From: a virus
Lineage: Duplodnaviria > Heunggongvirae > Uroviricota > Caudoviricetes
DNA length: 64,000 nucleotides
Reading direction: 5' to 3' (one strand)
Virus record (IMG/VR): IMGVR_UViG_3300027833_000012
Span: 48,257-112,256 of that record
Shown: in pieces, positions 4,488 through 43,433 of the stretch
Layout: each line of letters begins with the position of its first letter
How positions within the stretch are numbered: the stretch's first letter is position 1
Made by a program: the position numbers and the translations under genes
The notes under the pieces: generated by a model
Database searches by the model: none
The model's input: only the letters and a program-made list of their open reading frames with translations
What the model was told of the DNA's origin: nothing

Positions 4488-5253
4488 GATTCCTACCCAT
4501 ATGTTCTGGGTATAATAAGTAAAGTGGTTCAGATTGTGTTATTTCTTTAGTGTCAATATTCATTATAGATAACTTACCACTATATGTTGCACCAGTGTCC
4601 ATATTCCACACATTACCAATATTTATTGGTTTGTCATCATTGTAGTTAATTGTTGGGGTGTGACCTATATAAATTTCTTTATATTGTCCCCATATTACAC
4701 CCACCTTTTCAAAGTTACGTTGTTCAATCATATAACCCCAGAATGACCTATCCCAATAGAATGTTGCATTTTCACCTTTTTTAGTTTGACCAACATCCAT
4801 ATGATACTGTTTATCCATAGCAACCCTTGGATTAAAACCAGCATGTACGAACACCCTATTATCTTCATCAATATAATATTCTAATGCATTAGTTAAAAAT
4901 TCTAAATGAACGTTTAACATTTCCTCAGATTTATTAAAATAACTATCATATGTTTCTTTACCACCTTGACTATACCATAAATGGTTTTCTGAAGTTGGAC
5001 CCGTTTTAAGTGCGTCACGTAAAAACCTTTCAGTCCATTCATCATGATTACCCTTTAAATAAACCAATTTCTTGATTTTAATTAACTCTTCTATAACTTC
5101 AGCTGTCTCTGGCCAACCATCTGTAGCATCACCTAGGGCAATTAGCTTATCATTATCGTAATCAAAACTAACCTTTTCTAGTACTTGAATAAATGCCTTA
5201 TAACCACCATGAATATCCCCTATACAAAACGTTCTACTTATATTATTTTTCAT
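4465..5253 (-). CDS. calcineurin-like metallophosphoesterase (lambda-phosphatase/PnkP-phosphatase family)
   Basis: GDIHG, GDATDGW (GDxxDRG) and GNHDE motifs. Confidence 0.8.
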   Translation of the reverse strand: MKNNISRTFCIGDIHGGYKAFIQVLEKVSFDYDNDKLIALGDATDGWPETAEVIEELIKIKKLVYLKGNHDEWTERFLRDALKTGPTSENHLWYSQGGKETYDSYFNKSEEMLNVHLEFLTNALEYYIDEDNRVFVHAGFNPRVAMDKQYHMDVGQTKKGENATFYWDRSFWGYMIEQRNFEKVGVIWGQYKEIYIGHTPTINYNDDKPINIGNVWNMDTGATYSGKLSIMNIDTKEITQSEPLYLLYPEHMGRNREYLAKK

Positions 5254-5254
5254 G

Positions 5255-5740
5255 TTATTGTAATAATGTTGTTAAATGGTCCCACATTGGTTGTGCACTA
5301 GATGGTGAAGCTTCATATAAAGCTTCTCTAAATTCAGCATATTCTGTCTTATACATATCAATTTTACCACCCATCTCTACGTTTGCAATTCTATCTGCTA
5401 ATTTTAATATAATAGCGTCTGGTATACTAGCAGTCTTAGGTAAAGTTTTTAGTTTTTTTTCTCTTCTGGACCTACCTAATTCATCAGTCACACCATAAAC
5501 CATTTCAGCTACATCAAGCCCAAAATATTTATTTATTTTGTTGTAAGATAAGTCTGTATCTTCTAGCGTATCATGTAAATAACCACCAATAATATACTTA
5601 CCATGATGTCCGAATTTTTTTAAAACTTCAACAACATCATCCAAGTGTTTCCAATAAGGGTATATATCCGAATACGTCTTATTACCATGAGCTTTTATGG
5701 CTACTAACCTAGCTTCTTCATAAATTTTTACTGTATACAT
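5255..5740 (-). CDS. HD-domain hydrolase, RelA/SpoT-like (p)ppGpp hydrolase fold
   Basis: GYLHDTLEDTD resembles the RelA/SpoT HD motif LHDVIEDT. Confidence 0.55.
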   Translation of the reverse strand: MYTVKIYEEARLVAIKAHGNKTYSDIYPYWKHLDDVVEVLKKFGHHGKYIIGGYLHDTLEDTDLSYNKINKYFGLDVAEMVYGVTDELGRSRREKKLKTLPKTASIPDAIILKLADRIANVEMGGKIDMYKTEYAEFREALYEASPSSAQPMWDHLTTLLQ

Positions 5741-6710: not shown

Positions 6711-7043
6711 TTATTTCTTACTTTCTTTTTTAATCCCTAAGTAAGTTCCAACAGAACCACCAATAATAAATGCTAATATCGGTAAAGGTTGACCCTCGGT
6801 TATTGAATTCATACCAAAGGTCATTGATACTAGCCATGTTATACCAATACCATTACCAGTTATTATCGTAGCTAACATTCTTCTTTCCGAAGTATATATA
6901 ACATTTAATGTTCTCAAATAAATAAAAATTATCTGAGATGCTAAAATAACCAGTGCTGAATAATATTGATTTTCAAGTATTTCAGTAAAATCTACCATGA
7001 TATTATATTTTTTATAAAATGTTATACAATCTCTTATTATCAA
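6711..7043 (-). CDS. small membrane protein
   Basis: 110 aa with three hydrophobic helices. Confidence 0.4.
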   Translation of the reverse strand: MIIRDCITFYKKYNIMVDFTEILENQYYSALVILASQIIFIYLRTLNVIYTSERRMLATIITGNGIGITWLVSMTFGMNSITEGQPLPILAFIIGGSVGTYLGIKKESKK

Positions 7044-8127
7044 GGTTAATCATGTAATCTTCTACTGTATCAACCTTACCATCTTTAAGGTTAAAGAATA
7101 AAGAAGAAAACTCCTTAACATCTCTTTTTGATGTTATTTCAAAAACTTTCATTGCGAACTTTTTTTGTTCACCCTTAGTTATGTTTTTAGGTTTGAATGT
7201 GGTTAATTCTTCCCAAACACTTATTAAGTCTAATGTCAGTTTATCGTAATTCACCTTAAGTCTAGTTATCTCTTCTTTTCTTTCTGGAAAAGCAACTACG
7301 AATTCATCAATTTCATTAGATTTAACTACCTCCATAATACTATGCTCACTAGTCTTAGATTTTAAGTGATGTACCGCAATATATTCTGGATTCTTTAATT
7401 TAACTCTATTAAAATTTGCATCGACAACAACATAACCTTCGTCATACCATGGCATATCTTTAAATGTATTAACTAAAACTCCAGCATTTTTAGCATTCAT
7501 ACTGTATGATTTAACTAATGGTACATTTAAAACTTTTGCAACATCCTTTAATGAATTATAGTCAATTTCCAACAACCCTGACAATCTTCTAGCTGCTAAT
7601 AGTGTTATAGAAGACTCCTTATGTGGTTTAACTACAATATTATAAGGTGTGGTCAATTCGAACATATATACAACACCCTTTGTTAAGGCATCTAAATTCA
7701 TATTTATTTTGTTAGCTGTTTCCCAAAATAAATCATTAAATGTTGTTCCGAATTTATTGTTAACCTCACCATCACCTTCAGCAGTACCAGTTGTTGCTGC
7801 AAACCAAGTTTCTTTATTCCAATCCCAATATAATTGAATCATAGAACCATCTAACTTCTCCAATACGTGTGCAGTATCCCAATCAACTTTAGAAGCTAAT
7901 GATTCTGCATTATTGAAGAATTTTTTAAAAGAAAGTGACATAACTTTCCAAGTTCCCTTTTCCAATATTAAACCTCTACACTCTTGAACTTCCGTTAAAG
8001 ACATGTCAGATTCAATCTGATTGTATTTAATAAGAACTTTATCACCATAGTCTTTAACTTTAAGTTTAAAAGCCTTTTCTACACTATCTATACCGTTTTT
8101 ATTTATGTATTCTACTATCTTTAACAT
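7012..8127 (-). CDS. RNA ligase 1 (T4 RnlA-like)
   Basis: Motif I EKLDGS at about residue 90 (T4 RnlA K99 KEDGSL); 371 aa versus 374 aa in T4 RnlA. Confidence 0.75.
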   Translation of the reverse strand: MLKIVEYINKNGIDSVEKAFKLKVKDYGDKVLIKYNQIESDMSLTEVQECRGLILEKGTWKVMSLSFKKFFNNAESLASKVDWDTAHVLEKLDGSMIQLYWDWNKETWFAATTGTAEGDGEVNNKFGTTFNDLFWETANKINMNLDALTKGVVYMFELTTPYNIVVKPHKESSITLLAARRLSGLLEIDYNSLKDVAKVLNVPLVKSYSMNAKNAGVLVNTFKDMPWYDEGYVVVDANFNRVKLKNPEYIAVHHLKSKTSEHSIMEVVKSNEIDEFVVAFPERKEEITRLKVNYDKLTLDLISVWEELTTFKPKNITKGEQKKFAMKVFEITSKRDVKEFSSLFFNLKDGKVDTVEDYMINLDNKRLYNIL

Positions 8128-8138
8128 ATTTTCATTTT

Positions 8139-8498
8139 TTATTCATCCTTTGGTTCATCATCAAGATTTTCATTATCAAAATCTTCACTAGCATTACCAA
8201 AATCTATATCAAGGTTATCTTTTATCTCACGTAATACGTCATCTAATTCACTATCCCCCATACCAGCGATATTGCTATTCGACATATATTTATCGATTAT
8301 TTTCTTAGATGAAAACATAGAACACAAGTCTGTAAATGTTTTCATATCATCAACATCAAACAACAATCCACTAGCTAGTATTAAAACATCACCAGTTGCC
8401 GATATTAGATAATCACCATTTTCTTGCCCTTCTTTATTTAAGGCTCTACCTAAATTAAATAACTTATCACTAAGTTCATCATGTCTTTTATTTTCCAT
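8139..8498 (-). CDS. acidic hypothetical protein
   Basis: 119 aa; Asp/Glu-rich C terminus. Confidence 0.4.
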   Translation of the reverse strand: MENKRHDELSDKLFNLGRALNKEGQENGDYLISATGDVLILASGLLFDVDDMKTFTDLCSMFSSKKIIDKYMSNSNIAGMGDSELDDVLREIKDNLDIDFGNASEDFDNENLDDEPKDE

Positions 8499-8516
8499 AT
8501 CTCATATTTTATATTC

Positions 8517-8526
8517 ACAAATATAC
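8517..8526 (-). promoter_or_regulatory. -7 promoter element acaaatatac
   Basis: 18 nt upstream of the ATG at 8498. Confidence 0.4.
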
Positions 8527-8560
8527 ATAAATAATAACACTTATGCAAATTGTATTAACT

Positions 8561-9622
8561 TTATTTAAATGTTATTTCATTAACTATACCACTTAGGTTT
8601 ATATAATTCTCCAAATTAGACCAATTAGTGATGTCATTAGACATTACTGGTTTAGCACCCTCTTTAGAATTAATTGCTAAAGTTATGTGTGGTATTTCAT
8701 TATCACTATGATAACCTTCAACCATAACTGCAACAGCCATATCACTAACCCCCACTTTAGTTACCCTTATTGGTTTTATATCACCTAAATCAGACTTCAA
8801 ATCTTCTGACAATCCCTTACCGAAATTTATAGTCATATGTTTAGCTATCACCTCCCAACCTTCTGGTATGTAATGCTTAGTAGCTTCAATCAGTTTTTTT
8901 CTTGAGTTATCACCTAACTTAAGTGAAGCCCATTTTTTTCGTTTACCGTTCTTACTTTCCATTATCTTCTTAACTGTTAATTCACCAATACTAGCGTGTG
9001 ATGAAATCATTCTTTTAATTGTTTCTAAAGGTACATTATGTGTATTTCTATTAGCTAACTCTTCAGCTGTAAACCCATTTGTCCCAATATCAACTATTTT
9101 AATGTTACCTTCATCAAAACCCATCTTTAAAGCTGTCTCAACGTACATCTTAGAGTCTCTAGGTTTTATTCCAGTATTATCTATAATAACTGGAGAAACA
9201 CCCCTTAGCATGTCTGATTTAGCGTTTCTATAATTTTGTCCATGCATCTTTCCAAGTGCACTAAAGTCATTACTTTCTTTCATTTTCTTAAAGAAGTCGT
9301 TATAATCACCATTAGACTCAATCACTTCATCAGTAGAGTGAATTGTACCCTCATTAACTAAGCTTTTTGCTTTAGTACTCTTACCAGCACCTGGTTACGG
9401 TATCCCTCTCATGATGAATAACTCTTGAGAGGGACGTGTAATTTTTACGTTAATTGAATTGTATTCTACTAGAATATCTTTTATATTTTTCTTACCCATG
9501 TTTATTAATGAATCACAAACCTTTACATTATATGAGGAAAAAGAACCCCTAAAAAGGGTGTTGAATCCGACCCATTTAACTAATCTTCTATTTTTATATT
9601 TCATAATTATTATTTTATACAA
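8561..9622 (-). CDS. polynucleotide kinase - 2H cyclic phosphodiesterase fusion (Trl1-like healing module), interrupted by an in-frame TAA
   Basis: Upstream ORF ends ...LFIMRGIP then TAA (9395-9397), and the same frame continues PGAGKST... (P-loop kinase). The C-terminal half has two H-x-T-x motifs (HMTINF, HITLAI) of the 2H phosphoesterase (LigT/CPD) family. Deleting 6 nt (gtaacc) would restore a canonical Walker A RGIPGAGKST. Confidence 0.6.
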
Positions 9623-12863: not shown

Positions 12864-13022
12864 TAGAGAGTACAGGATTCGAACCTGTATGGACTTTGTT
12901 TCTTTCGAATCTTTTGTTCCTAGCATTGTCATCTTACCACGCCATATAAGCGGTCTTGATAAGAAACTGATTTTAACGACTATCAGTTTGCATAGCTTCT
13001 TTCCCAATTTAGCCAACTCCCT
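12864..13022 (-). ncRNA. 159-nt tRNA-like RNA (acceptor and T arm canonical, interior expanded)
   Basis: 5' AGGGAGU (rc of actccct, 13016-13022) pairs 7/7 with 3' ACUCUCU (12865-12871), next to T arm ACAGG-UUCGAAU-CCUGU. The D arm is GCU/AGC with a GG loop. The interior holds an 8-bp hairpin AAACUGAU/AUCAGUUU whose 10-nt loop contains GUUAAAA. Confidence 0.35.
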
Positions 13023-14435: not shown

Positions 14436-14543
14436 TGTTAGGTGTAGGACTCGAACCTACATACCTTTAATTTAGTTAATTACTCTAAACTAATCAGTTG
14501 CCGCAACATTTACGGAGCGTTGAAACCATTCCGCCAACCTAAC
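14436..14543 (-). tRNA. 108-nt tRNA-like gene (type-II-like, expanded; loop GUUUAGAG contains UUA)
   Basis: 5' GUUAGGU pairs with 3' ACCUAAC; T arm GUAGG-UUCGAGU-CCUAC; D arm GCG/CGC with a GG loop; interior has extra hairpins and no canonical 7-nt anticodon loop. Confidence 0.4.
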
Positions 14544-16102: not shown

Positions 16103-16439
16103 ATTGTTAATTTTTTTTTATTTTGCCTACTCTAAATTAAGTTTTCAGCTACCCTTATTTATTTACTAAAACAAATATACAACTTATTATTTAATAAAAC
16201 AAGTTTAAATTAAATATTTAACTTATTTTTTATATGTGTATGTTGTATCACACTCTTTTGAACCATCAACCTCAACACAATTTATCTTAACACTAGGGTT
16301 AATTAATTTTGATGATGTTAATGTATTACTAGGTTTATTAGGTAAAAAAAACATTGCGAATATACCACCCAATACAAAAAAAAATACCATAACATTAATC
16401 TTTTCATTACTTTTATTTTCCTCCATAATATTTTATATT

Positions 16440-18056: not shown

Positions 18057-18125
18057 TATATGTTTTGATTTATTGATTTACACAAATATAAGAAGAATTT
18101 ATTTACTGTGCAAATTTAAAGTGAA
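18057..18125 (-). promoter_or_regulatory. promoter-bearing intergenic repeat, copy 2
   Basis: Near-identical to 16900-16961 with a 7-bp internal duplication; 5' of 17707..18051. Confidence 0.55.
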
Positions 18126-18715
18126 AAAGATTTAAAAAAATTAGTTATCTTGTAACAATGGTTACTAGAAAGACCATTACAACTGTCAACATGAAAGAAA
18201 TTATTACGTTGATTATATAACATGTCTGAATCGTCATCAATTATTACATATCTTCTGAAATTCCAAGCTAAACTTACATCTAATTCCAATTTATCACACA
18301 AATAATCCCTAATGAATGATTGAATCTCCATACCCCTACATGATTCGTTTCTATTAAAGTGTGGGGTAAGTCCTATTATATCGAAATCACAACCTAAAGT
18401 TTTAAAAAATAATCTCATATAGTCTAAACCATGACTTCTCCATGTTGAAGAAATAACAACTTTACTATTGGTATCTTTACATAATTCATTAAATAATTTA
18501 ACTGTGTTAAAGTCAACTGATTCGATATTATATTTTAATTTATCTACATGACTATAACTTTCAACTTCACTATATATGTTTTCATTATCCAACGATAGTT
18601 TATCTAGGTTATTTGGTTCTGAGTTTAATTCTCTTTTATACCTTTCAGAATAAAATTTATGATGATTTAAAACTCCATCAATATCTAAGAATATAATGTT
18701 AGGTACTTTACTCAT
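18116..18715 (-). CDS. HAD-superfamily phosphatase (possible polynucleotide 3'-phosphatase)
   Basis: Motif I FLDIDGVL (DxDG[TV]); motif II SST; motif IV IIDDDSD; directly flanks the tRNA island. Confidence 0.5.
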   Translation of the reverse strand: MSKVPNIIFLDIDGVLNHHKFYSERYKRELNSEPNNLDKLSLDNENIYSEVESYSHVDKLKYNIESVDFNTVKLFNELCKDTNSKVVISSTWRSHGLDYMRLFFKTLGCDFDIIGLTPHFNRNESCRGMEIQSFIRDYLCDKLELDVSLAWNFRRYVIIDDDSDMLYNQRNNFFHVDSCNGLSSNHCYKITNFFKSFSL

Positions 18716-19552: not shown

Positions 19553-19630
19553 TGGTCCAGGTGAGACTCGAACTCACATGTGACCAAATTACGGTTTCAA
19601 CTGCTTATGAGGCAGAGCCGATACTGGACC
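19553..19630 (-). tRNA. tRNA-like gene with CAU (Met/Ile2-type) loop, non-canonical architecture
   Basis: Perfect 7-bp acceptor GGUCCAG/CUGGACC; T arm GUGAG-UUCGAGU-CUCAC. The CUGC-CUCAUAA-GCAG hairpin lies only 8 nt after the acceptor (no normal D arm), and 23 nt separate it from the T arm. Confidence 0.45.
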
Positions 19631-19638
19631 TTATTTTG

Positions 19639-19715
19639 TTGTGCGAAAGGGATTCGAACCCTTATTTCCAACCTTTACCTTAGTCACGCTTATCAGACGT
19701 GCTGGTTACCGCACA
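19639..19715 (-). tRNA. tRNA-like gene with GAU (Ile-type) loop, non-canonical architecture
   Basis: Acceptor UGUGCGG/UCGCACA; T arm AAGGG-UUCGAAU-CCCUU. The anticodon arm CACGU-CUGAUAA-GCGUG is almost identical to E. coli tRNA-Ile(GAU) but displaced toward the 5' end. The D-arm-equivalent sequence lies 3' of it (CCAG...UUGG pairing). Confidence 0.45.
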
Positions 19716-20039: not shown

Positions 20040-20157
20040 TGTAAGAAATAGGATTCGAACCTATGAATGATTACCTTCTCTGATAATCTCAGTATAACTA
20101 ATGTTAACATACCATTTTCAAGTACCCTGGTGCTTTCAACCACTCAGCCATTCTTAC
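20040..20157 (-). tRNA. 118-nt tRNA-like gene (Ser/Leu-type D arm) with about 30 nt of extra internal sequence
   Basis: Perfect acceptor GUAAGAA/UUCUUAC; D arm GCU-GAGUGGUUGAA-AGC; T arm AUAGG-UUCGAAU-CCUAU; no canonical anticodon arm located; contains the palindrome AUGUUAACAU. Confidence 0.4.
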
Positions 20158-20696: not shown

Positions 20697-20774
20697 AGTC
20701 AAGGTAGTAGATAGAGTAATCGAAACCCATGGTGTAACCCATCCCTGGGTTTCAAGCCCAGTTTGTCACCTTGA
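20697..20774 (+). ncRNA. tRNA-like element with aberrant topology
   Basis: 7-bp GUCAAGG...CCUUGAC closing stem and T-arm-like CUGGG-UUUCAAG-CCCAG, with 7 extra nt between T arm and acceptor. Long internal hairpin GAAACCCA...UGGGUUUC. Strand uncertain. Confidence 0.25.
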
Positions 20775-20792
20775 CGGTACCTACTAATTTTG

Positions 20793-20885
20793 CGGAAGAA
20801 GTGGGATTCGAACCCACACGGCTTTTTACACCCCTTCGTTTTCAAGACGAGCACTGTTACCCAGAATCTTTCAGTTTATTCTTCC
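20793..20885 (-). tRNA. tRNA-Ser (anticodon UGA), type II with enlarged D loop
   Basis: Acceptor GGAAGAA/UUCUUCC; anticodon arm UCGU-CUUGAAA-ACGA; long variable arm; T arm GUGGG-UUCGAAU-CCCAC. Confidence 0.6.
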
Positions 20886-22704: not shown

Positions 22705-22781
22705 TGGTGCGAATAGTGGGAATCGAACCCACTACATCCGAGTTTAGAAGTCGGTACCCCAACCATTAGGGTCTTACTCGC
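22705..22781 (-). tRNA. candidate amber-suppressor tRNA (anticodon CUA) with encoded CCA
   Basis: GCGAGUA acceptor pairs UAUUCGC, then A and CCA. D arm CCC/GGG with G18G19. Anticodon stem CCGA/UCGG plus C-C closing pair and 7-nt loop UUCUAAA: U33, CUA at 34-36, A37 A38, as in supF-type loops. T arm GUGGG-UUCGAUU-CCCAC. Confidence 0.55.
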
Positions 22782-23526: not shown

Positions 23527-24813
23527 TTATTCTATTAAACCTGGGTTATATGAATTTGCTAAACGTTCTAGTTCATTTGCGTATTCTGGTATTATAATTT
23601 TCATAATATTAATATCTCCTTTAGGTATTATATTATTAAGACTAGTAGAAAGTAACTGAATTGCCTTATCCTCATCACCATCCACCATATCCATCCAAAG
23701 ACTTGCATCCTTAGTGTATTTTTTACCTTTAATACTTTTTATACCTCTTAATGCTCTAATTATATGCATATATTTCGATTTATAAGATTTACCTAAAAAA
23801 CCATTTAAATTTTTATCAATTTCTTTATATATTTTAGGTGTATAAATACCCTTAGTTTCGGATACAAACATATCAATACCCATTTTTTCAATAATATATT
23901 TCAAAGTCTCATATCTACCTTCAACTAAAACATGTCTATATATATCATCATTAATATCAGTACTTCTTATTTTTTCAAGTATTTCACTATCTGAGATATC
24001 TGATAAATCTTTTTTACTAATATTATTTACTTCTTCATGATATGTATCACTCCATTGTTCTATAAATTTAGAGAACTCTATATTATATGAACCATACATA
24101 TCAATTGGTGCTTTTATTTTTTTATCAGTACATAACACACCAACTACATACCTAGAAATTGGGTCTTGTATATTCCAATCTCCATCCTCAATTAAGTAAA
24201 ATATTACATCACCATCAAGTATTGAATCTCTAATTTGACCAGCACCACCTTCACCATCGTGCTGCCCTTTACTTGTCCAATTAGAATCATCATCTTTTAA
24301 ATCTTTCATATCTCTAAGGTCTTCACAAGATGTTATCCTAGGTTTTGCTGATTTACTAGCTAAATCATGTGGATGTCTCGATACTACAACATATAAATCA
24401 CTTCCTTCATCATTTGAACGATTTAATCTATCTAAGTATGAATTATAATTTTTAAGTAATTTAAAATCTAATTTATTTAATATTTTACTAATTTTAATAT
24501 TTTGATTACTTTTATTATTTTTAGCAATATTTTTATCCATATCAACAATAGAATAATTATATTTTTTAAGCATACTTGAAATATCATTATTTAGTTTTTC
24601 AATATTTTTAACATCAAATTTAAGTTTTGGTGTCTTCCTTGTTGGAGTGATTTGTTTACCAGTCTCCAAATTATAGTATAATCTATATACATTTTTACCA
24701 AAAATATCATCTAATTTACTTTTATCCCAAGTATTCCTTAATTGTTTACTTAAATTTAATGATATACTCTCATTCAAACCTTCCCTTAATAAATTTTGTA
24801 TAAATTTTTTCAT
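23527..24813 (-). CDS. leader-family protein A2 (MKKFIQNLLREGLN...)
   Basis: 428 aa; same leader; body unrelated to A1. Confidence 0.5.
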   Translation of the reverse strand: MKKFIQNLLREGLNESISLNLSKQLRNTWDKSKLDDIFGKNVYRLYYNLETGKQITPTRKTPKLKFDVKNIEKLNNDISSMLKKYNYSIVDMDKNIAKNNKSNQNIKISKILNKLDFKLLKNYNSYLDRLNRSNDEGSDLYVVVSRHPHDLASKSAKPRITSCEDLRDMKDLKDDDSNWTSKGQHDGEGGAGQIRDSILDGDVIFYLIEDGDWNIQDPISRYVVGVLCTDKKIKAPIDMYGSYNIEFSKFIEQWSDTYHEEVNNISKKDLSDISDSEILEKIRSTDINDDIYRHVLVEGRYETLKYIIEKMGIDMFVSETKGIYTPKIYKEIDKNLNGFLGKSYKSKYMHIIRALRGIKSIKGKKYTKDASLWMDMVDGDEDKAIQLLSTSLNNIIPKGDINIMKIIIPEYANELERLANSYNPGLIE

Positions 24814-25928
24814 ATTTCCATAAATTCTGGTACATTTTCACCAGGTGGGTTGTTTTCACTAACATATTTTATTAATTCTTTAAAATAATCTTCTAATTCT
24901 CTTTGATTATCTTCTTCACCATTTATGTCTTTTATTAATTTACTTGTTAAAACACTAACTGTTTCATTGTTTAAATTATTAGTAAGTTTTAATAAATCAC
25001 TAACATCAACTCTAAAATGATAATCACGTCTACTTTCGTATTCATTCATTAAGAAAATAACATAAACATCATCTAAAGTTAATTCATTAACATTAACATC
25101 TTCCTTGACCTCATAACCACTTACGTATAAAAGTTTTAATGAATCAATAAAATCTTCATTAATTTTTTCTTTTTTTACATCATTATATAAGTAATTTTGT
25201 AAATTACTTATATTATCAACGCTAATTATTTCATCAAAACCTTCACTTTTAGAAGGTTGTTCGTATGATTTAAACATTCTATCAAAAGCTTGTGGTGGTA
25301 TTGTTTTTGATTTACCCATTCGTTTAGCTGATTCTGCTCTATTATTTGCCACTTGTTTAATTAATTCTTCAGAACCTTTAAATTTAAAATCAACAGCAAT
25401 TTTAATATAATCACCTTCATTACCTTCGATTGCTTTTAATGCTCCTTTTCTTGAACCAGAATTCATATTAGTCATATCCACTACTATCACTTTACCACTA
25501 GGGTGTGCGTCTTTAACCCTTGAATTGAATAAATTTTGAACTTTATTATTTGCATTAATTACTTTATCAAAAACAGTGTCGGCCCATGTCATCCAGCTTG
25601 GTGATTCTATAACAGTACCATATTTTTCGTCAACATCACCTATTTTAGCATCTTCTGGTGGTGTTGAAAATAAATCATCATATGTCCAATTGTAAGTTGA
25701 AGCAACTTCTTCAACAATATCATCTCTACTAATTACATATGAATTAGGGAAATTACTTTTAATCCATGTTGATTTACCTACTGATGGTGGGCCTACTAAA
25801 ACTATTATTTTTCTCTTTTTTAACCCCCCATCTACCTCTTCACGTAAAAGACTATTTTGTTTAATATATCTTTGTTCTGAAAGTATATTAGCTTTCATCA
25901 TATTTTTAAATTTATCTAATTTTCTCAT
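24810..25928 (-). CDS. polynucleotide 5'-kinase (T4 Pnk kinase-domain-like) behind a 30-aa shared leader B
   Basis: VLVGPPSVGKSTW and FPNSYVISRDDIVEE parallel T4 Pnk GCPGSGKSTW and NPGFYNINRDDYRQ; DMTNMN ~ DTNLN; no DxDGT phosphatase domain; leader MRKLDKFKNMMKANILSEQRYIKQNSLLRE. Confidence 0.7.
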   Translation of the reverse strand: MRKLDKFKNMMKANILSEQRYIKQNSLLREEVDGGLKKRKIIVLVGPPSVGKSTWIKSNFPNSYVISRDDIVEEVASTYNWTYDDLFSTPPEDAKIGDVDEKYGTVIESPSWMTWADTVFDKVINANNKVQNLFNSRVKDAHPSGKVIVVDMTNMNSGSRKGALKAIEGNEGDYIKIAVDFKFKGSEELIKQVANNRAESAKRMGKSKTIPPQAFDRMFKSYEQPSKSEGFDEIISVDNISNLQNYLYNDVKKEKINEDFIDSLKLLYVSGYEVKEDVNVNELTLDDVYVIFLMNEYESRRDYHFRVDVSDLLKLTNNLNNETVSVLTSKLIKDINGEEDNQRELEDYFKELIKYVSENNPPGENVPEFMEI

Positions 25929-26730: not shown

Positions 26731-28227
26731 TTATTTTAAGTGCGGTTTAATTGCGAATGATATATAACATCCTACCATAAATCCAAGTGTTGATGGAATT
26801 GGGAAAACAACATCCTTACCGAACTTTGTCTTATATTTTTCTCTATTAAGTATTAAGCTATCAAATCTTTTAAAGATGTAATATGATAACCCTATTAAAA
26901 TATAGTTACCAGAAGCTACCATTGCAATTGCTAACCCACTTAATAGTCCATGAGTAAAGTTTATAATAGAGTGTTTTGAAACTGTCTTAATAGTTTCGTT
27001 AGCATCCATCATTTTTCTTTCTTTTTCTATAATTTTTTTAATTTTCATTTCTCTTTTTTTTAATTTAGGGTAAATATATGACCTTTTTTTAGTTCTACCA
27101 AATATTTTATCAATAAATTTATCTTTCTCTAACGTTTTGATAACATTACCTAATTCTGGCCCTGGTTTCAAGTCGTATTTCTCTAATACTTCACCCCCAG
27201 TTACTGTTAATTCAAAAACAATGAATGCATTAACAAAATTCTCATCAAGATTAATAAGTTTAGAAAACTTAACAATTTGTTTAGGTGTTAAACCAGACCT
27301 TTTTTGTTCTTTTTTCATAGAAGAAACTTCAAAAATAGATTTATCATTAACAAAGTTAGTAAATAGAATTAAGAATTTAATACCTCTTATTTCCTCACTA
27401 CTATATTTTAATTTATTTAACGTTTTAACAATATTTAAAATATTATTATCACGTAAAAGAACAGTTAACAATAATATTGGGTCACGTTCTTCAATTAAGA
27501 AATTATTGACCATTAACCCTTTAAAGATATCCTTGAATAAGCCAAATTTATTAGTTAAAGTTAAAAAGTGAGTTACTGATTTAGAAGTCTTAAGACCCTT
27601 AAGGAATTCATCTCTAATTCGCTCACCAGAAACACCTTCTAATGAAGAATCTTTAATTAAAGCTTGTTCGGTATCAGTATGAAGGTTTGAACCGAATCTA
27701 CCAGCAAATCTGATTGCCCTTAGTATTCTAAGTCTATCCTCATTAAATCTTTCTTCAGCTTTACCTACTGTTCTTACCACACCGTTTTTAATATCTTCAA
27801 CACCACCCACTAAATCAACGATTTCATTAGTATCTATGTCAAAAAATAGTGCATTAATTGTTAAGTCACGTCTTAATACATCCTTATCAATGGTTGTAAA
27901 TTCTACTGAATCTGGTCTTCTACCAGATGATAGGTCACTTCTGAATGTAGCAATTTCGAATTCATTTGAGTCAGTGAATACGTTAATTACACCGAATGAC
28001 TTACCCGTTGGTAGAGTTCTGATACCAGCTACCTCCATCATTTCTTCTACTTTATCTGGTGTTGCGTCTGTTGCTAAATCCCAATCTTTAATTGGTTTGT
28101 TTAAAATAGAATCACGAACAGCACCACCAACAATGTAAAGTTTAAAACCATTACTTAAGAAAATATCCTTAATGGTTAAAATATCCTTTGGGATTGGTAG
28201 GTTAAATTTAATTCTTTTTGTGTTCAT
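26731..28227 (-). CDS. cca: CCA-adding enzyme / tRNA nucleotidyltransferase (class II) with C-terminal membrane-helix extension
   Basis: YIVGGAVRD (GGxVRD) and DWDLATD motifs; C-terminal about 90 aa hydrophobic. Confidence 0.7.
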   Translation of the reverse strand: MNTKRIKFNLPIPKDILTIKDIFLSNGFKLYIVGGAVRDSILNKPIKDWDLATDATPDKVEEMMEVAGIRTLPTGKSFGVINVFTDSNEFEIATFRSDLSSGRRPDSVEFTTIDKDVLRRDLTINALFFDIDTNEIVDLVGGVEDIKNGVVRTVGKAEERFNEDRLRILRAIRFAGRFGSNLHTDTEQALIKDSSLEGVSGERIRDEFLKGLKTSKSVTHFLTLTNKFGLFKDIFKGLMVNNFLIEERDPILLLTVLLRDNNILNIVKTLNKLKYSSEEIRGIKFLILFTNFVNDKSIFEVSSMKKEQKRSGLTPKQIVKFSKLINLDENFVNAFIVFELTVTGGEVLEKYDLKPGPELGNVIKTLEKDKFIDKIFGRTKKRSYIYPKLKKREMKIKKIIEKERKMMDANETIKTVSKHSIINFTHGLLSGLAIAMVASGNYILIGLSYYIFKRFDSLILNREKYKTKFGKDVVFPIPSTLGFMVGCYISFAIKPHLK

Positions 28228-36458: not shown

Positions 36459-36500
36459 GTTGTTTAAACGTTTCTGTAAAAGGTACAAAAACGTGTCAAA

Positions 36501-36868
36501 TGTGGAGATGGAGGGGCTCGAACCCTCGTATCAACCTAAGCTTAAAAAGCTTTCTACATGTTTAGGTTAACATTTTTCTTATGTTCCAAAAATAGTTAAT
36601 TTTTTTATGGATACAAAAAACAAAATCCACTAACCATTTTTTTTAACATCACAAGGTTTAGTTTCGTGATGGTGGGCGAACCCACTACAATCATTTAGGC
36701 GAATGCTACCTCTCCTGATTCAACTTCTACAGAAGCGTTTTCAAGGAAATTTACGTCAATGTCAAACGAGTTGTCATCTAAAAAAATCGATAGGTTATTT
36801 AAGTGTTTCCATCTAACACTACATGCTTACAAGAAAAGTCATTAAGTGAGCAATTCCAAGTCATCCCC
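36501..36868 (-). ncRNA. ssrA: tmRNA-like (ssrA-like) RNA, about 368 nt
   Basis: 5' GGGGAUG pairs with 3' CAUCUCC (G3:U70 wobble, A73). T arm GAGGG-UUCGAGC-CCCUC. 5' segment ACUUGGAAUUGC resembles the tmRNA D-loop analogue. Internal tag-like frame ...ASVEVESGEVAFA-UAA (36736->36695). No ORF longer than 30 aa. Own promoter and terminator. Embedded UUCG tetraloop hairpin GUGGG-UUCG-CCCAC. Confidence 0.6.
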
Positions 36869-41774: not shown

Positions 41775-41808
41775 AAAAAAGGTTTATGCGAACATAAACC
41801 TTTTTTTT
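41775..41808. terminator. hairpin plus T8 terminator
   Basis: ggtttatgcgaacataaacc then tttttttt. Confidence 0.55.
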
Positions 41809-41969
41809 CAGAATGTTGTGGTAATTTACTTCTATTACCAAATAAGAAGTTAGTTATTTTAAAAAACTTTTTTTTAAAATTAATAGAGTGGATAACCAAT
41901 TAAAACCACTCAGTGATTACAGTTTATATATATATGTGTTATTTGCTGTATACATTCTTTATATTTTTA

Positions 41970-43433
41970 TTAAATAACAATCTGACTATATCTATCAGAA
42001 TTTATTGTTTTATACATAATATTAATTGGTGACATATCTTCACCACTTAAGATACTTGTTAATATACTAGGACTAAACCCAGATACTAATGCGGCATTCA
42101 TCTTGTTAAATTGAACTGGATTATTATCACTAGAAGCGTTAATATTCCAATAAACAATCTTAGGTGTGTCATAACCAGACTCAGTATATAACCTTTCAAT
42201 CATTTTTTGAGCTGTAGGGTTATCACCACCCCTAATACCTCTATTAAATTCCATGTCACTAAGAATTAAAATAGTTGTTGGCATTTCTTCTTTAGGTACA
42301 TTCATTTTAGTAGCTTTATCTAATAAAACTTGGAAAGTTATTTCTAAATTTGTTGAACCACCCCAGTTAGCATTTTTCATTTGTTTATAACGTTCACTAA
42401 GTGAACCACTCACATATTCAAGTCTTGGGTTATTATCGAATGTTATGAATCCATTTTTAAATGGTCCTTCATTTCTTTCAGAAATATATAAACCTAACGA
42501 TATTGCTACATCCATACAATTAAGTGTTGGTGAACCACCAGCTGAACATGTCATTGAGTACGACACATCAACTACAGGAAGAACCATTTCTTCATTACCT
42601 TCTAAATAGTTAGGTAATGAAGACCATTGTGTATTTGCACCAAGTACATTACCAGACTTTAAACTTTTTAAAACATCATATGGGTATATAGCACCAGCAT
42701 TTATTTTGACATCACCAGAATTAACTTGCTCAAGATAATCAGTAAATCTAACAGTATCGTGTTTAGTAAACGCTCTCATGTAGTCAGACATAGCCTTAGA
42801 TGGTACATGAGAATAGTTAATTTTATCAAACTCCTTAGCACACATTTGTTGCTCAATAGTATTAGATAAACCTACAATTAAATTTCTATATTTTTTTTGA
42901 GATAAGTTTAAGTGTTCTCTTAATTTTTTAGCTAAGAAGTTCTTCTTACTATTTTTAGAGTTACCTCTTGGCATCCATTTAGCACATAAATTATTAGACT
43001 CTTTTAAACCTTTAGAAATAACATCTAAAGCTTCTTTTTCTAAAGGCGTACCTAATAAAGTAAATAAATCATCCCATCTACCATAAACTGGTATTAAGTG
43101 TAGATTTTTACTTAAAGTTTTAGTTTGGTGTGTTGCCAGGTATGTGATTATTTCTTTAAATGTAGACCTTTCACCAGCACCACCTCTAATATCCCTAACC
43201 CAGAATAATATTTTCATAGCCGTTAACGCATCTTCAGCAAATGCTTTAGTAAATGAATTAATCTTAATAGATTCATCTTTACCTCTAACAGCACCTATCT
43301 TAAAAAATAGGTCAACACATGAGTTTAGTGTTGTAGAATTTGTTGTCATACCATTTTGGGTATAACCATCTTCAGTTCTTAATGCGTCTATTAATCTCAT
43401 AATATTTTTTTTAGTGTGATACAAATATATCAC
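41970..43433 (-). CDS. vWA-domain protein (MIDAS DVSYS), possible TROVE/Ro-like
   Basis: VVDVSYSM (DxSxS) ... TILILSDMEF; 487 aa. Confidence 0.45.
   Translation of the reverse strand: MIYLYHTKKNIMRLIDALRTEDGYTQNGMTTNSTTLNSCVDLFFKIGAVRGKDESIKINSFTKAFAEDALTAMKILFWVRDIRGGAGERSTFKEIITYLATHQTKTLSKNLHLIPVYGRWDDLFTLLGTPLEKEALDVISKGLKESNNLCAKWMPRGNSKNSKKNFLAKKLREHLNLSQKKYRNLIVGLSNTIEQQMCAKEFDKINYSHVPSKAMSDYMRAFTKHDTVRFTDYLEQVNSGDVKINAGAIYPYDVLKSLKSGNVLGANTQWSSLPNYLEGNEEMVLPVVDVSYSMTCSAGGSPTLNCMDVAISLGLYISERNEGPFKNGFITFDNNPRLEYVSGSLSERYKQMKNANWGGSTNLEITFQVLLDKATKMNVPKEEMPTTILILSDMEFNRGIRGGDNPTAQKMIERLYTESGYDTPKIVYWNINASSDNNPVQFNKMNAALVSGFSPSILTSILSGEDMSPINIMYKTINSDRYSQIVI

What the first reader, a model, noticed from the sequence alone, without database searches (positions are those of the whole stretch)
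20040..20157. Over-long tRNA-like genes (118, 108 and 159 nt) with canonical ends and unexplained internal insertions
Three minus-strand genes have 7/7 acceptor stems, canonical T arms and type-II-like D arms, but carry 20-70 nt more than any tRNA class:
- 20040-20157: contains the palindrome AUGUUAACAU.
- 14436-14543: loop GUUUAGAG with UUA, 8- or 9-membered.
- 12864-13022: an 8-bp hairpin with loop AGUCGUUAAA containing a UAA (Leu-type) triplet.

Interpretation:
- They are too short for group I introns.
- The size is right for BHB-type or other small insertions that would need endonuclease plus ligase processing.
- A Trl1-like kinase/CPD plus ligase set is encoded here.
- They could alternatively be tRNA-derived regulatory RNAs.
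Basis: partly seen in the sequence, partly recalled or inferred. Interest (0 to 1): 0.6.

Follow-up and report, generated by a model that had tools for sequence, protein, structure and literature searches.

The report
Anticodon-less tRNA look-alike genes in a phage
Three conserved phage genes have the outer frame of a leucine- or serine-type tRNA, but unrelated 55-105 nt hairpin modules replace the anticodon arm, so they are most likely non-decoding tRNA mimics from a widespread, apparently undescribed phage RNA class rather than tRNAs with introns.

Summary
All three minus-strand genes (S1 20040-20157, S2 14436-14543, S3 12864-13022) have:
- a 7/7 acceptor stem;
- U8;
- a class-II-like D arm with GG;
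- a canonical T arm.
A reversed-sequence control gave no such frame in about 1.4 Mb.

All three are more conserved than their flanks. S2 differs from a relative only by a compensatory D-stem pair, against 10% flank divergence. They are therefore functional, not pseudogenes.

The intron reading is not supported:
- no anticodon stem is anchored after the D arm, intact or split;
- no 7-nt loop has both U33 and R37;
- there are no more bulge-helix-bulge motifs than in shuffles;
- Rfam finds no ribozyme or intron.
A true contrast case, with an intact anticodon stem and a 74-nt insert, exists in another phage (L044).

The same architecture recurs widely in viral contigs. At least 52 non-redundant Leu-type frames carry unrelated inner modules, mostly with discriminator A73, and often with no ordinary tRNA in the stretch fetched around them. 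S3's frame halves occur in at least 10 viral contigs and in none of 185,579 cellular genomes.

Best reading: tRNA-processed, non-decoding tRNA mimics carrying variable structured cargo. Their role is inferred to lie in the conflict over tRNA damage and repair. The function remains unproven.

The parts
20040..20157 (-). S1: a 118-nt tRNA-like RNA gene with a Ser/class-II-type frame. It ends 5 nt upstream of tRNA-Ser(GCU). Acceptor 20151-20157 / 20041-20047, D arm 20132-20148, T arm 20048-20064, discriminator A at 20040.
   Evidence: Rfam tRNA 42.7 bits with the anticodon arm skipped. Found by the frame scan. 0/118 differences from relatives L081 and L153, whose flanks diverge by 2.6-13%.
20065..20131 (-). 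S1 inner module (67 nt) in place of the anticodon and variable arms. It holds a remnant CUUGAAA (20116-20122) identical to the Ser(UGA) anticodon loop but with no stem around it. It also holds the palindrome AUGUUAACAU (20101-20110) and a 7-bp hairpin GAUUAUC-AGAGAA-GGUAAUC (20069-20088) at the variable-arm position.
   Evidence: z = -0.6 for the inner part; no anchored anticodon stem; palindrome p about 0.09.
14436..14543 (-). S2: a 108-nt tRNA-like RNA gene with a Leu-type frame (GGCGGAAUGGUUUCAACGC, discriminator A73). Acceptor 14537-14543 / 14437-14443, D arm 14517-14534, T arm 14444-14460.
   Evidence: Rfam tRNA 37.2 bits. Against L153 it has only 2 changes, C11-G26 to U11-A26, which is compensatory in the D stem. 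Flank divergence is 10.1%.
14461..14516 (-). S2 inner module (56 nt). Hairpin CCGUA-AAUGU-UGCGG (14501-14515) sits at the anticodon-arm position with a 5-nt loop. Hairpin UGAUUA-GUUUAGAG-UAAUUA (14477-14496) follows, then an A/U-rich tail whose CUAAAU can alternatively pair with the GUUUAG loop.
   Evidence: z = -2.0. 0 changes in the inner part, against about 5 expected from flank divergence.
12864..13022 (-). S3: a 159-nt tRNA-like RNA gene with a Leu-type frame, discriminator A73 and G3.U70. Acceptor 13016-13022 / 12865-12871, D arm 12995-13013, T arm 12872-12888. It belongs to a virus-only frame family, AGRGAGUUGGCGGAAUUGGUAGACGC...ACAGGUUCGARUCCUGUACUCUCUA.
   Evidence: 2/159 differences from L081, with 5% flank divergence. 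The frame halves have 0 matches in 185,579 cellular genomes.
12889..12994 (-). S3 inner module (106 nt). It holds the 8-bp hairpin AAACUGAU-AGUCGUUAAA-AUCAGUUU (12964-12989), which starts 5 nt after the D stem, then a second bipartite hairpin and an A-rich, weakly structured tail.
   Evidence: z = -1.3. At the syntenic locus, relative L153 carries a 98-nt family member with an unrelated inner part.
26731..28227 (-). Context: a phage CCA-adding enzyme. None of S1-S3 encodes a 3' CCA.
   Evidence: Pfam PolyA_pol, E = 9e-37. Sequences. The functional link is inferred.
7012..9325 (-). Context: an Rnl1-like RNA ligase (7012-8127) and a kinase plus Trl1-type CPD protein (8561-9325). They are part of an RNA-repair island that also holds Rnl2 (289-1323), Metallophos (4465-5253), HD (5255-5740) and HAD_SAK_2 (18116-18715).
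   Evidence: A link to S1-S3 rests on proximity only.
41970..43433 (-). Context: a Ro60-like (TROVE + vWA) protein, a possible but unproven protein partner of tRNA-like RNAs.
   Evidence: Pfam DUF2828/DUF7788. The AlphaFold model matches Thermus phage phiLo Ro60 (9kop, 9l5y) at E about 1e-9 to 1e-8.

Best explanation
S1, S2 and S3 are stand-alone genes for non-decoding tRNA mimics.

Each keeps the tRNA frame:
- a 7-bp acceptor stem with an unpaired discriminator A;
- U8 and A14;
- a class-II D arm with G18G19;
- a T arm with UUCGAAU.
The acceptor/T-arm helix and the D-loop/T-loop elbow can therefore form.

The anticodon arm and variable arm are replaced by a gene-specific cargo of hairpins, 55-105 nt long.

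Inferred mechanism
- They are transcribed with the neighbouring same-strand genes.
- The enzymes that recognise the acceptor/T-arm helix and elbow cut them out: RNase P at the 5' end and a 3' processing nuclease.
- The phage CCA-adding enzyme adds the CCA tail.
- The products accumulate as stable 110-160 nt RNAs.
- Leu and Ser synthetases do not read the anticodon, so these frames may even be chargeable. Without an anticodon arm of the right length and loop they cannot decode.
- They then act through the frame plus cargo as tRNA surrogates. The most likely roles are baits, decoys or cofactors for proteins that handle tRNAs during infection: host tRNA-targeting defence nucleases or modifiers, or the phage's own repair and Ro60-like machinery.

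What is shown: the architecture, the conservation, the recurrence in phages, and the absence of intron hallmarks.
What is inferred: processing, stability, charging and the biological target.
For: Frame is real and selected
- The frame passes the Rfam tRNA threshold for S1 and S2 although the anticodon arm is skipped.
- The reversed-sequence control gives 0 hits.
- There is purifying selection over the full length. S1 has 0/118 differences and S3 2/159. S2 has 2/108, both in one compensatory D-stem pair, with flanks at 2.6-13% divergence.
- S3's T stem (ACAGG/CCUGU) and that of its syntenic L153 counterpart (AUAGG/CCUAU) differ by a compensatory change.

Not decoders
- No anticodon stem is anchored after the D arm.
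- The hairpins at that position have 5-, 7- (with G33) or 10-nt loops and stems displaced or lengthened to 8 bp.

Recurrence
- Over-long frames occur in many large-phage loci.
- The S3-type frame carries unrelated 43-121 nt inner parts in at least 10 viral contigs. It has no match in cellular genomes.
Of these, 40 have A73, and 53 of the 80 loci have no ordinary tRNA nearby.
- The 52 non-redundant inner parts share no k-mer above shuffled expectation.
- None has a canonical anticodon arm.

Cargo is structured in a related subfamily
- Between L164 and L167 a 6-bp loop-tail helix is fully exchanged: AGCUUU/AAAGCU becomes UGUAAU/AUUACA. I read this by eye from the sequences.
- In family A the hairpin at the anticodon position covaries. 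It is capped by a 4-6 nt loop, mostly of GNRA type (GAGA, GGAA, GAAA; CAAA in L008). The RNA lies next to an RNA ligase gene.

Context
- The window carries an RNA-repair island, a CCA-adding enzyme and a Ro60-like gene.
Against: - There are no expression, processing or aminoacylation data.
- The inner parts of S1 and S3 are not significantly more stable than shuffles (z = -0.6 and -1.3).
- No conserved protein neighbour was found across S3-family loci.
- Many Leu-frame genes elsewhere sit in replication or recombination modules, not repair islands. The repair link is therefore not general.
- The Ro60-like gene has its own conserved non-coding candidate partner directly downstream.
- Loops in S2 and S3 contain UAG and UAA triplets, which are Leu anticodons, and the phage tRNA cluster shows no ordinary tRNA-Leu. 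An exotic decoder is therefore not formally excluded.
- Close homologues of S1 and S2 are nearly identical, so covariation in their cargo could not be tested.
Confidence: 0.55

Rival explanations
1. They are intron-containing tRNA genes (Leu or Ser). The small inserts would be cut out by a protein endonuclease, and the exons rejoined by the phage kinase/CPD plus RNA ligase, giving decoding tRNAs.
For: - A Trl1-like healing and sealing set is encoded.
- The tRNA cluster lacks an ordinary tRNA-Leu, while S2 and S3 have Leu-type frames with UAG and UAA in hairpin loops.
- S1 keeps CUUGAAA, identical to a Ser(UGA) anticodon loop.
- Another phage, L044, has a tRNA with an intact anticodon stem and a 74-nt insert in the loop. 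Small inserts at the intron position therefore exist in phages.
Against: - None of S1-S3 has a 5-bp anticodon stem anchored 1-3 nt after the D arm, intact or split.
- BHB candidates do not exceed shuffles.
- Deletion scans give many mutually inconsistent weak models, not one clean tRNA.
- There is no Rfam group I, group II or ribozyme hit.
- In 48 related genes, anchored split stems occur at chance level.
- The inserts are conserved as strongly as the frame, which is unexpected for a discarded intron.
Confidence: 0.1
2. They are unpermuted Y-RNA analogues. These tRNA-like RNAs would bind the phage Ro60-like protein (41970-43433) and tether it to nucleases or repair enzymes, as YrlA does in bacteria.
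For: - The phage encodes a Ro60-like protein.
- Bacterial and phage Ro60 proteins partner with tRNA-like Y RNAs (PMC4201824, PMC12135203).
- A relative, L155, has sub-threshold YrlA matches directly upstream of a homologous gene.
- No YrlA match exists anywhere in the window at E <= 0.5.
- Family A tRNA-like RNAs lie next to RNA ligase genes, as in the rsr-yrlA-rtcB arrangement.
Against: - S1-S3 lie 22-29 kb from the Ro60-like gene.
- They lack the permuted topology and give no YrlA score.
- There is no GNCGAAN0-1G motif outside the T loops.
- A conserved, structured, roughly 150-nt non-coding stretch directly downstream of the Ro60-like gene is a better candidate partner.
- The inner modules share no motif that a single protein could recognise.
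Confidence: 0.15
3. They are decaying tRNA pseudogenes: duplicated Leu or Ser tRNA genes whose anticodon region was destroyed by insertions and which now have no function.
For: - S1 resembles the neighbouring Ser(UGA)-like genes. Its acceptor GUAAGAA compares with GGAAGAA in the neighbour, and the CUUGAAA loop is identical.
- The array contains other aberrant tRNAs.
- The S2 and S3 loci are replaced by other genes in close relatives.
Against: - All three are more conserved than their flanks along their whole length, with a compensatory D-stem change in S2.
- The same architecture recurs in dozens of unrelated phages, often as the only tRNA-like gene in the stretch fetched.
- Frame sequences are held nearly invariant across divergent phages.
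Confidence: 0.05
4. They are functional but unorthodox adaptors. One version is a tRNA with an expanded anticodon loop (8-10 nt) that decodes Leu or quadruplet codons. Another is a charged Leu/Ser/Ala donor for a non-ribosomal aminoacyl-transfer reaction or a tmRNA-like rescue.
For: - Leu and Ser frames with A73 are classes whose synthetases ignore the anticodon (established knowledge).
- S3 has G3.U70 plus A73, the AlaRS determinant (read from the sequence).
- Like tmRNA, they have an acceptor and T arm formed by the two ends with an internal insert. A tmRNA is also encoded, at 36500-36868.
- 40 of 48 related genes have A73.
Against: - The candidate loop-bearing hairpins are displaced from the D arm, or have 8-bp stems, or sit at the variable-arm position. 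The anticodon-to-elbow distance required by the ribosome is therefore not met (established tRNA geometry).
- G3.U70 is absent from most S3-family members.
- There is no ORF or pseudoknot array as in tmRNA.
- No aminoacyl-transferase gene was identified among the proteins scanned.
Confidence: 0.1

Closest known systems
YrlA / bacterial and phage Y RNAs (Rfam RF02553; Chen et al. 2014, PMC4201824; phiLo Yrl1/2, PMC12135203)
   Same: - Both are non-decoding RNAs that mimic the tRNA D arm, T arm and acceptor stem, with tertiary-contact nucleotides kept.
- Both are encoded by phages that also carry Ro60-like and RNA ligase genes.
- The anticodon region is replaced by another helix.
   Different: - YrlA is circularly permuted. 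Its ends lie in the Ro-binding stem and its acceptor stem is closed by a loop.
- YrlA carries a GNCGAAN0-1G motif and lies next to the Ro60 gene.
- S1-S3 have open acceptor ends with a discriminator base, no such motif, no YrlA score, and lie 22-29 kb from the Ro60-like gene.
tmRNA tRNA-like domain (RF00023)
   Same: - The 5' and 3' ends pair into an acceptor stem next to a T arm.
- There is no anticodon arm.
- A large internal insert replaces the middle of the tRNA.
   Different: - tmRNA has a reduced D region, several pseudoknots, a tag reading frame and a conserved G3.U70.
- S1-S3 keep a full class-II D arm, are 108-159 nt long and have no reading frame or pseudoknot array.
- The phage has a separate genuine tmRNA.
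Phage T4 species 1 and 2 RNAs (rnaC, 139 nt; rnaD, 119 nt)
   Same: Both are small stable RNAs of unknown function encoded within a phage tRNA cluster, of similar size. rnaC has a T arm and an acceptor-like helix.
   Different: - There is no sequence similarity.
- rnaC has a 5' extension and an 8-9 bp acceptor-like stem, and lacks a full tRNA frame enclosing an insert.
Intron-containing pre-tRNAs (archaeal/eukaryal BHB introns; group I introns in bacterial tRNA-Leu(UAA))
   Same: The gene is longer than a tRNA, with extra sequence in the anticodon region. The Leu identity recalls the classical tRNA-Leu intron. Healing and sealing enzymes are encoded nearby.
   Different: There is no split anticodon stem, no BHB motif, no group I core and no clean spliced product. 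The inserts replace the anticodon arm rather than interrupt it.
Engineered tRNA scaffolds
   Same: They have the same design: a tRNA frame in which the anticodon arm is replaced by a cargo RNA, which gives correct processing and high stability.
   Different: Those are man-made. I found no natural family of this design in the searchable literature.

Membership tests
tRNA (RF00005) | 7-bp acceptor stem with an unpaired discriminator, a D arm with G18G19, and a T arm with the T-loop consensus. | tested here: met
   Met in all three genes. Rfam scores are 42.7 bits (S1) and 37.2 bits (S2) against a threshold of 29. S3 gives no Rfam hit but passes the frame scan.
tRNA (RF00005) | An anticodon arm with a 5-bp stem one nucleotide after the D stem and a 7-nt loop with U33 and a purine at 37. 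| tested here: not met
   Rfam alignments skip this region as a 50-nt insertion. No anchored stem exists. Loops are 5, 7 (with G33), 8 or 10 nt.
BHB-intron pre-tRNA (archaeal/eukaryal type) | A bulge-helix-bulge motif (3-nt bulge, 4-bp helix, 3-nt bulge) at the exon-intron junctions. | tested here: not met
   There are 2-3 weak candidates per gene, no more than in shuffled inner sequences, and none lies at a sensible junction.
BHB-intron pre-tRNA (archaeal/eukaryal type) | Removing one segment restores a canonical cloverleaf. | tested here: not met
   The deletion scan gives many inconsistent low-quality models. The split-stem test fails for S1-S3 but passes for control L044.
BHB-intron pre-tRNA (archaeal/eukaryal type) | A splicing endonuclease (EndA/Sen family) is available. 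| not tested
   Only about 30 of roughly 85 window ORFs were scanned against Pfam, and none matched. The rest of the phage genome and the host are unknown.
Group I intron in tRNA-Leu | A catalytic core (P3-P9) of at least about 200 nt inserted in the anticodon loop. | tested here: not met
   The inserts are 13-64 nt beyond class-II length. There is no Rfam intron hit at E <= 0.5-10.
YrlA / Y RNA (RF02553) | A covariance-model match with permuted topology, ends in a Ro-binding stem and a closed acceptor hairpin. | tested here: not met
   There is no YrlA hit in the window at E <= 0.5. L155 serves as a positive example, with 34.7 and 24 bits, both below the family's gathering score of 69. S1-S3 have open acceptor ends.
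YrlA / Y RNA (RF02553) | Encoded next to a Ro60 (TROVE) gene and bound by that protein. | tested here: inconclusive
   A Ro60-like gene is present but lies 22-29 kb away. Binding cannot be tested here. Another conserved non-coding RNA candidate lies directly downstream of that gene.
tmRNA (RF00023) | A tRNA-like domain plus a tag reading frame and pseudoknots, with G3.U70. | tested here: not met
   There is no tmRNA score at these loci. G3.U70 occurs only in S3. No reading frame is present.
Virus-specific Leu-frame family of S3 (defined here) | Frame AGRGAGUUGGCGGAAUUGGUAGACGC ... ACAGGUUCGARUCCUGUACUCUCUA enclosing a variable inner part that lacks an anticodon arm. | tested here: met
   S3 matches the 3' half exactly and the 5' half with a diverged D arm. 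There are at least 10 viral members of 95-173 nt and 0 cellular matches.

The most novel reading that the evidence does not exclude
Phages may carry a large, so far undescribed class of natural "tRNA scaffolds".
- These would be Leu- or Ser-type tRNA frames, chargeable or at least processed like tRNAs.
- Each would present a rapidly exchanged, structured cargo module.
- The cargo would be swapped as cassettes between close relatives.
- They would act as decoys or adaptors in the arms race with host defences that sense, cut or modify tRNAs.

S1-S3 would be three members in one jumbo marine phage.

A less likely but still open variant is that some of them are substrates of a phage-encoded cut-and-rejoin pathway. 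That would be the first enzymatic tRNA splicing outside archaea and eukaryotes.
Probability: 0.3. Interest if true: 0.8.

Novelty: new variant of a known kind. Interest (0 to 1): 0.62.

Why it matters
- tRNA-finding programs either miss these genes or call them intron-bearing tRNAs with arbitrary anticodons. ARAGORN, for example, gave Thr(agt), Asn(att) and Ser(gct) with odd introns. Phage tRNA inventories and codon-usage arguments are therefore distorted.
- If they are stable tRNA mimics, they add a new layer to the conflict over the translation apparatus, which already involves anticodon nucleases, tRNA-modifying toxins, RNA repair and Ro60/Y RNA. They would be a natural counterpart of the engineered tRNA scaffold.
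- The class is easy to test, because the sequences are short, numerous and specific to phages.

Tried and rejected
- **ARAGORN with introns allowed:** it gives implausible models, not used.
- **Exhaustive single-deletion scan with ARAGORN:** too permissive. It shows only that no unique clean tRNA emerges.
- **BHB search:** negative.
- **Rfam, whole window at E <= 0.5 and sub-regions at E <= 5-10:** only tRNA and tmRNA. No ribozyme, intron or YrlA.
- **Palindromes as a hallmark:** AUGUUAACAU and similar are individually not significant. GUGCAC is conserved only in family A and occurs in 2 of 52 Leu-frame inner parts.
- **Insert as a repeated mobile element or antisense RNA:** there are no significant matches of the inner parts elsewhere in the window on either strand.
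- **Close phage relatives in deposited genomes:** none.
- **Conserved protein neighbour of the S3 family:** none. The 438-aa neighbour of S2 is a lipoprotein, with a signal peptide and Cys. It has no structural or Pfam match.
- **Neighbours of Leu-frame genes in other phages:** mostly replication or recombination-type genes, judged by eye from sequence and not scanned, and not RNA repair.
- **Host tRNA-Leu as the source of the S3 frame:** no exact match in 185,579 genomes.
- **MAFFT alignment of S1 with the neighbouring Ser tRNAs:** uninformative.
- **Promoter and terminator scans:** at background level in this A+T-rich DNA.
- **Sequence-profile search of the DUF2828 protein against PDB:** negative. 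Only the fold comparison revealed Ro60.
Full report
**1. What is there**

The window is 28.5% G+C, and nearly all its genes lie on the minus strand. It is phage-like, with:
- a tRNA array at 18.8-22.8 kb and a tmRNA at 36500-36868;
- a lysozyme and a GP88-like gene;
- a dense RNA-repair gene set.

An identical copy of one window protein lies on a 222-kb contig, so the source is probably a jumbo phage from marine samples.

I call the three flagged genes S1 (20040-20157), S2 (14436-14543) and S3 (12864-13022). All lie on the minus strand.
- a 7/7 acceptor stem (S3 with one G.U) and an unpaired discriminator A;
- U8 and A14;
- a 3-4 bp D stem with a GG-containing loop of class-II type;
- a 5-bp T stem with loop UUCGAAU or UUCGAGU.

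Rfam's tRNA model scores S1 at 42.7 bits and S2 at 37.2 bits against a threshold of 29. In both alignments the whole anticodon arm is skipped as a 50-nt local insertion. S3 gets no Rfam hit, but it passes a rule-based frame scan.

**2. More than chance**

- The frame scan found 92 hits in the window plus 80 related phage loci, and none in the same sequences reversed. About 18 hits were 98 nt or longer.
- T-arm motifs in the window number 17 on the minus strand and 0 on the plus strand. Each lies in a tRNA, the tmRNA or S1-S3.

**3. The genes are under selection**

Three close relatives were found:
- L081 (97% protein identity);
- L153 (92-98% nucleotide identity);
- L085.

| Gene | Compared with | Differences in gene | Flank divergence |
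|---|---|---|---|
| S1 | L081, L153 | 0/118 | 2.6-13% |
| S2 | L153 | 2/108 | 10.1% |
| S3 | L081 | 2/159 | 5% |

The two S2 changes convert the D-stem pair C11-G26 into U11-A26. The 55-nt inner part of S2 has no change at all.

At the S3 locus, L153 carries a 98-nt gene with the same kind of frame. Its T stem is AUAGG/CCUAU instead of ACAGG/CCUGU, which is compensatory, and its inner part is wholly unrelated. The S2 locus in L081 is replaced by 0.9 kb holding other aberrant tRNA-like genes.

So the genes are functional, and they turn over as cassettes between close relatives.

**4. They are not tRNAs with introns**

- *No anchored anticodon stem.* A genuine interrupted tRNA keeps a 5-bp anticodon stem anchored one nucleotide after the D arm. 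L044 (2322-2468) does exactly this. Its stem UCGGA/UCCGA flanks a 74-nt insert, and removing the insert gives a clean 73-nt tRNA. None of S1-S3 has such a stem, intact or split.
- *What sits at that position instead.*
  - S2 has the hairpin CCGUA-AAUGU-UGCGG with a 5-nt loop. Its 8-nt-loop hairpin sits at the variable-arm position.
  - S3 has an 8-bp stem with a 10-nt loop, starting 5 nt after the D stem.
  - S1 has a displaced hairpin with loop UGAAAAU (G at position 33). It also keeps an orphan CUUGAAA, identical to the Ser(UGA) anticodon loop of a neighbouring gene, but nothing pairs around it.
  - With these stem lengths and offsets, the anticodon-to-elbow distance needed on the ribosome is not met. 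This step rests on established tRNA geometry.
- *No intron hallmarks.* Bulge-helix-bulge candidates are no more frequent than in shuffled inner sequences. Single-deletion scans give many inconsistent models. Rfam shows no group I or II intron or small ribozyme.

**5. The architecture recurs widely in phages**

- *Loci with HAD_SAK_2 homologues.* Over-long frames of 98-161 nt are common.
- *Family A (L008, L013, L017, L018, L023, L025, L040).*
  - It is syntenic between a roughly 190-aa protein and an RNA ligase gene, with no ordinary tRNA in the stretch fetched.
  - Its alignment shows covarying acceptor, T and anticodon-position stems.
  - The anticodon-position stem is capped by a 4-6 nt loop, mostly of GNRA type (GAGA, GGAA, GAAA; CAAA in L008). 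It is followed by a roughly 38-nt region with a GGUGCACC motif.
- *The S3 frame.* It recurs in at least 10 viral contigs of about 30% G+C, with inner parts of 43-121 nt. These are unrelated to one another and begin with short hairpins capped by 3-6 nt loops. Neither half of this frame occurs in 185,579 species-representative bacterial and archaeal genomes.
- *A pattern for a Leu-type D arm followed 55-85 nt later by a T arm.*
  - Of 79 matches, 68 have a paired acceptor and T stem, giving 48 distinct genes of 103-131 nt. Forty of these have A73, and 24 share the frame AGUCAGG...CCUGACU.
  - In 53 of the 80 loci, no ordinary tRNA lies in the fetched region.
  - None of the 48 has a canonical anticodon arm. 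Anchored split stems occur at chance level, 6 observed against 7.1 expected.
  - Fifty-two non-redundant inner parts share no k-mer above shuffled expectation.
- *Cargo is structured in one subfamily.* L164 and L167 share a stem GAGUA/UACUC, while a 6-bp loop-tail helix is completely exchanged: AGCUUU/AAAGCU becomes UGUAAU/AUUACA. I read this by eye from the sequences.

**6. Context in the window**

The RNA-repair island holds:
- Rnl2-like ligase, 289-1323;
- DNA ligase, 2970-4487;
- Metallophos, 4465-5253;
- HD, 5255-5740;
- Rnl1-like ligase, 7012-8127;
- kinase plus Trl1-type CPD, 8561-9325;
- HAD_SAK_2, 18116-18715;
- AAA_33 kinase, 24810-25928;
- CCA-adding enzyme, 26731-28227.

None of S1-S3 encodes a 3' CCA.

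The DUF2828/DUF7788 protein (41970-43433) is a Ro60 homologue. Its AlphaFold model (pLDDT 74.7) matches Thermus phage phiLo Ro60 over its full length at E about 1e-9 to 1e-8. PMC12135203 describes that protein and its Y-RNA-like partners.

A distant relative, L155, has sub-threshold YrlA matches directly upstream of a homologous gene. The window has no YrlA match at E <= 0.5. It does have a roughly 150-nt non-coding stretch directly downstream of the Ro60-like gene. That stretch is conserved and structured in 60-70% identical relatives, and it is the better candidate Y RNA.

Elsewhere, Leu-frame genes mostly lie in what look like replication or recombination modules, judged by eye from sequence and not scanned. 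A repair link is therefore not general.

**7. Most likely mechanism**

*Shown:*
- a selected tRNA frame that can form the acceptor/T-arm helix and the elbow;
- no anticodon arm;
- gene-specific cargo;
- restriction to phages and cassette-like turnover.

*Inferred:*
- The RNAs are excised by RNase P and a 3' nuclease.
- They are CCA-tailed by the phage enzyme and are stable.
- LeuRS and SerRS do not read the anticodon, and class-II tRNAs tolerate a large arm pointing away from the core. These frames are therefore the natural choice for carrying cargo, and they may be chargeable.
- They then act as tRNA surrogates: baits, decoys or cofactors for tRNA-handling proteins during infection.

I put about 0.55 on "non-decoding tRNA mimic". 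This umbrella also covers the Y-RNA-analogue sub-case, scored 0.15 on its own. No specific target has strong support.

| Rival explanation | Confidence |
|---|---|
| Y-RNA analogue of the Ro60-like protein | 0.15 |
| Enzymatically spliced tRNAs | 0.10 |
| Unorthodox adaptors or aminoacyl donors | 0.10 |
| Pseudogenes | 0.05 |

**8. Comparison with known systems**

The closest known systems are:
- YrlA/Y RNAs, which are tRNA mimics but permuted and Ro-linked;
- the tmRNA tRNA-like domain, which has the same end-to-end topology;
- T4 species 1 and 2 RNAs, unexplained stable RNAs in a phage tRNA cluster;
- engineered tRNA scaffolds, which have the same design.

Membership in tRNA proper, in BHB or group I intron-bearing pre-tRNAs, in YrlA and in tmRNA fails on tested defining features.

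Literature searches found no description of over-long, anticodon-less Leu-type tRNA-like genes in phages. The library is limited to open-access text, so absence there is not proof of novelty.

**9. Verdict**

- The intron interpretation is not supported. The "tRNA-derived non-coding RNA" alternative is favoured.
- S1-S3 are members of a broad, phage-specific and apparently undescribed variant of tRNA-mimic RNAs.
- Their function remains to be shown experimentally.

Noticed in passing
window 41775-41960 (-), directly downstream of 41970-43433: A roughly 150-nt non-coding stretch followed by a terminator lies after the Ro60-like gene. It is conserved in relatives with 60-70% protein identity (L159-L162). 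It has a long-range stem (GUGGUUUUA / UAAA..CCAC), an internal hairpin (CUUC/GAAG) and some compensatory changes. It is a candidate Y RNA of a type that Rfam's YrlA model does not match.
   Followed up: partly
window 41970-43433 (-): The DUF2828/DUF7788 protein (PHROG 850, 'RNA-binding protein') is a Ro60/TROVE + vWA homologue by fold. Sequence searches against PDB, both single-sequence and profile, found nothing. The family is very widespread in large phage contigs, with more than 6900 hits.
   Followed up: yes
L155 828-925 and 1047-1102 (also L157): There are two sub-threshold YrlA (RF02553) matches, at 34.7 and 24 bits, flanking a tRNA-Met. They lie immediately upstream of a DUF2828 homologue. 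The second shows the permuted order T arm, closed acceptor hairpin, D arm.
   Followed up: partly
L008 18722-18827, L017 12121-12226, L040 14908-15013, L018 19566-19726, and L013, L023, L025: This is the 'family A' tRNA-like RNA (105-161 nt). The hairpin at the anticodon position is capped by a 4-6 nt loop, mostly of GNRA type (CAAA in L008), and there is a GGUGCACC motif. It is syntenic between a roughly 190-aa protein (weak methyltransferase hit) and an RNA ligase gene. Further conserved non-coding sequence lies on both sides in L013, L023, L025 and L040, so the RNA may be part of a larger element.
   Followed up: partly
L044 2322-2468 and L045 916-1062: A tRNA (anticodon GUA) has an intact anticodon stem and a 74-nt insert in the anticodon loop. 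The insert has no BHB motif and is far too short for a group I intron. It is a genuine small intron-like insert in a phage tRNA, with no known removal mechanism.
   Followed up: partly
window 19553-19630 and 19639-19715 (-): Two tRNAs (anticodons CAU and GAU) have good anticodon and T arms but no recognisable D arm, and they have a roughly 23-nt variable region. Rfam scores are only 33.7 and 34 bits.
   Followed up: no
window 20705-20786 and 20794-20885 (-): Two aberrant Ser(UGA)-like genes are found only as weak tRNA-Sec matches or at a lowered ARAGORN threshold. One has an odd D region and the other an odd T arm. The acceptor GGAAGAA of 20794-20885 and the shared CUUGAAA loop resemble S1.
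   Followed up: no
window 22705-22781 (-): An amber-suppressor-type tRNA (anticodon CUA, called tRNA-Pyl by ARAGORN) has an encoded CCA. Among the greedy ORF set, stop codon use is TAA 75, TAG 6 and TGA 4.
   Followed up: no
window 8561-9325 and 7012-8127 (-): A single protein combines a P-loop kinase (residues 16-110) with a fungal Trl1-type cyclic phosphodiesterase (152-241; weak, at Pfam's cut-off). It lies next to an Rnl1-like ligase. This resembles a split Trl1 healing and sealing pathway, which would leave a 2'-phosphate. No Tpt1-like gene was seen among the ORFs scanned.
   Followed up: partly
window 16124-16158 (-): There is a near-threshold match to the DUF805b RNA motif: 32.6 bits against a gathering score of 35.6, E = 2e-5.
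   Followed up: no
L164 6527-6634 and L167 (110-nt gene): Two Leu-frame genes share a cargo architecture in which a hairpin loop and the 3' tail are complementary. All six positions are exchanged between the two genes: AGCUUU/AAAGCU in one, UGUAAU/AUUACA in the other. This suggests a conserved pseudoknot in the cargo.
   Followed up: partly
L081 2477-2567, 12054-12129 and 12272-12353; L146 2485-2558: Further odd tRNA-like genes occur in relatives. One is a 91-nt class-II frame with a 22-nt 'anticodon' loop. One is a 76-nt gene with an 11-nt loop. One is a gene that ARAGORN calls with a 4-nt anticodon (tcca).
   Followed up: no
window about 19745, 21770, 22830 and 41505 (-): A motif (T)AGTATCTTTGT(N)ATA recurs upstream of tRNA blocks and genes. 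It may be a phage-specific promoter.
   Followed up: no
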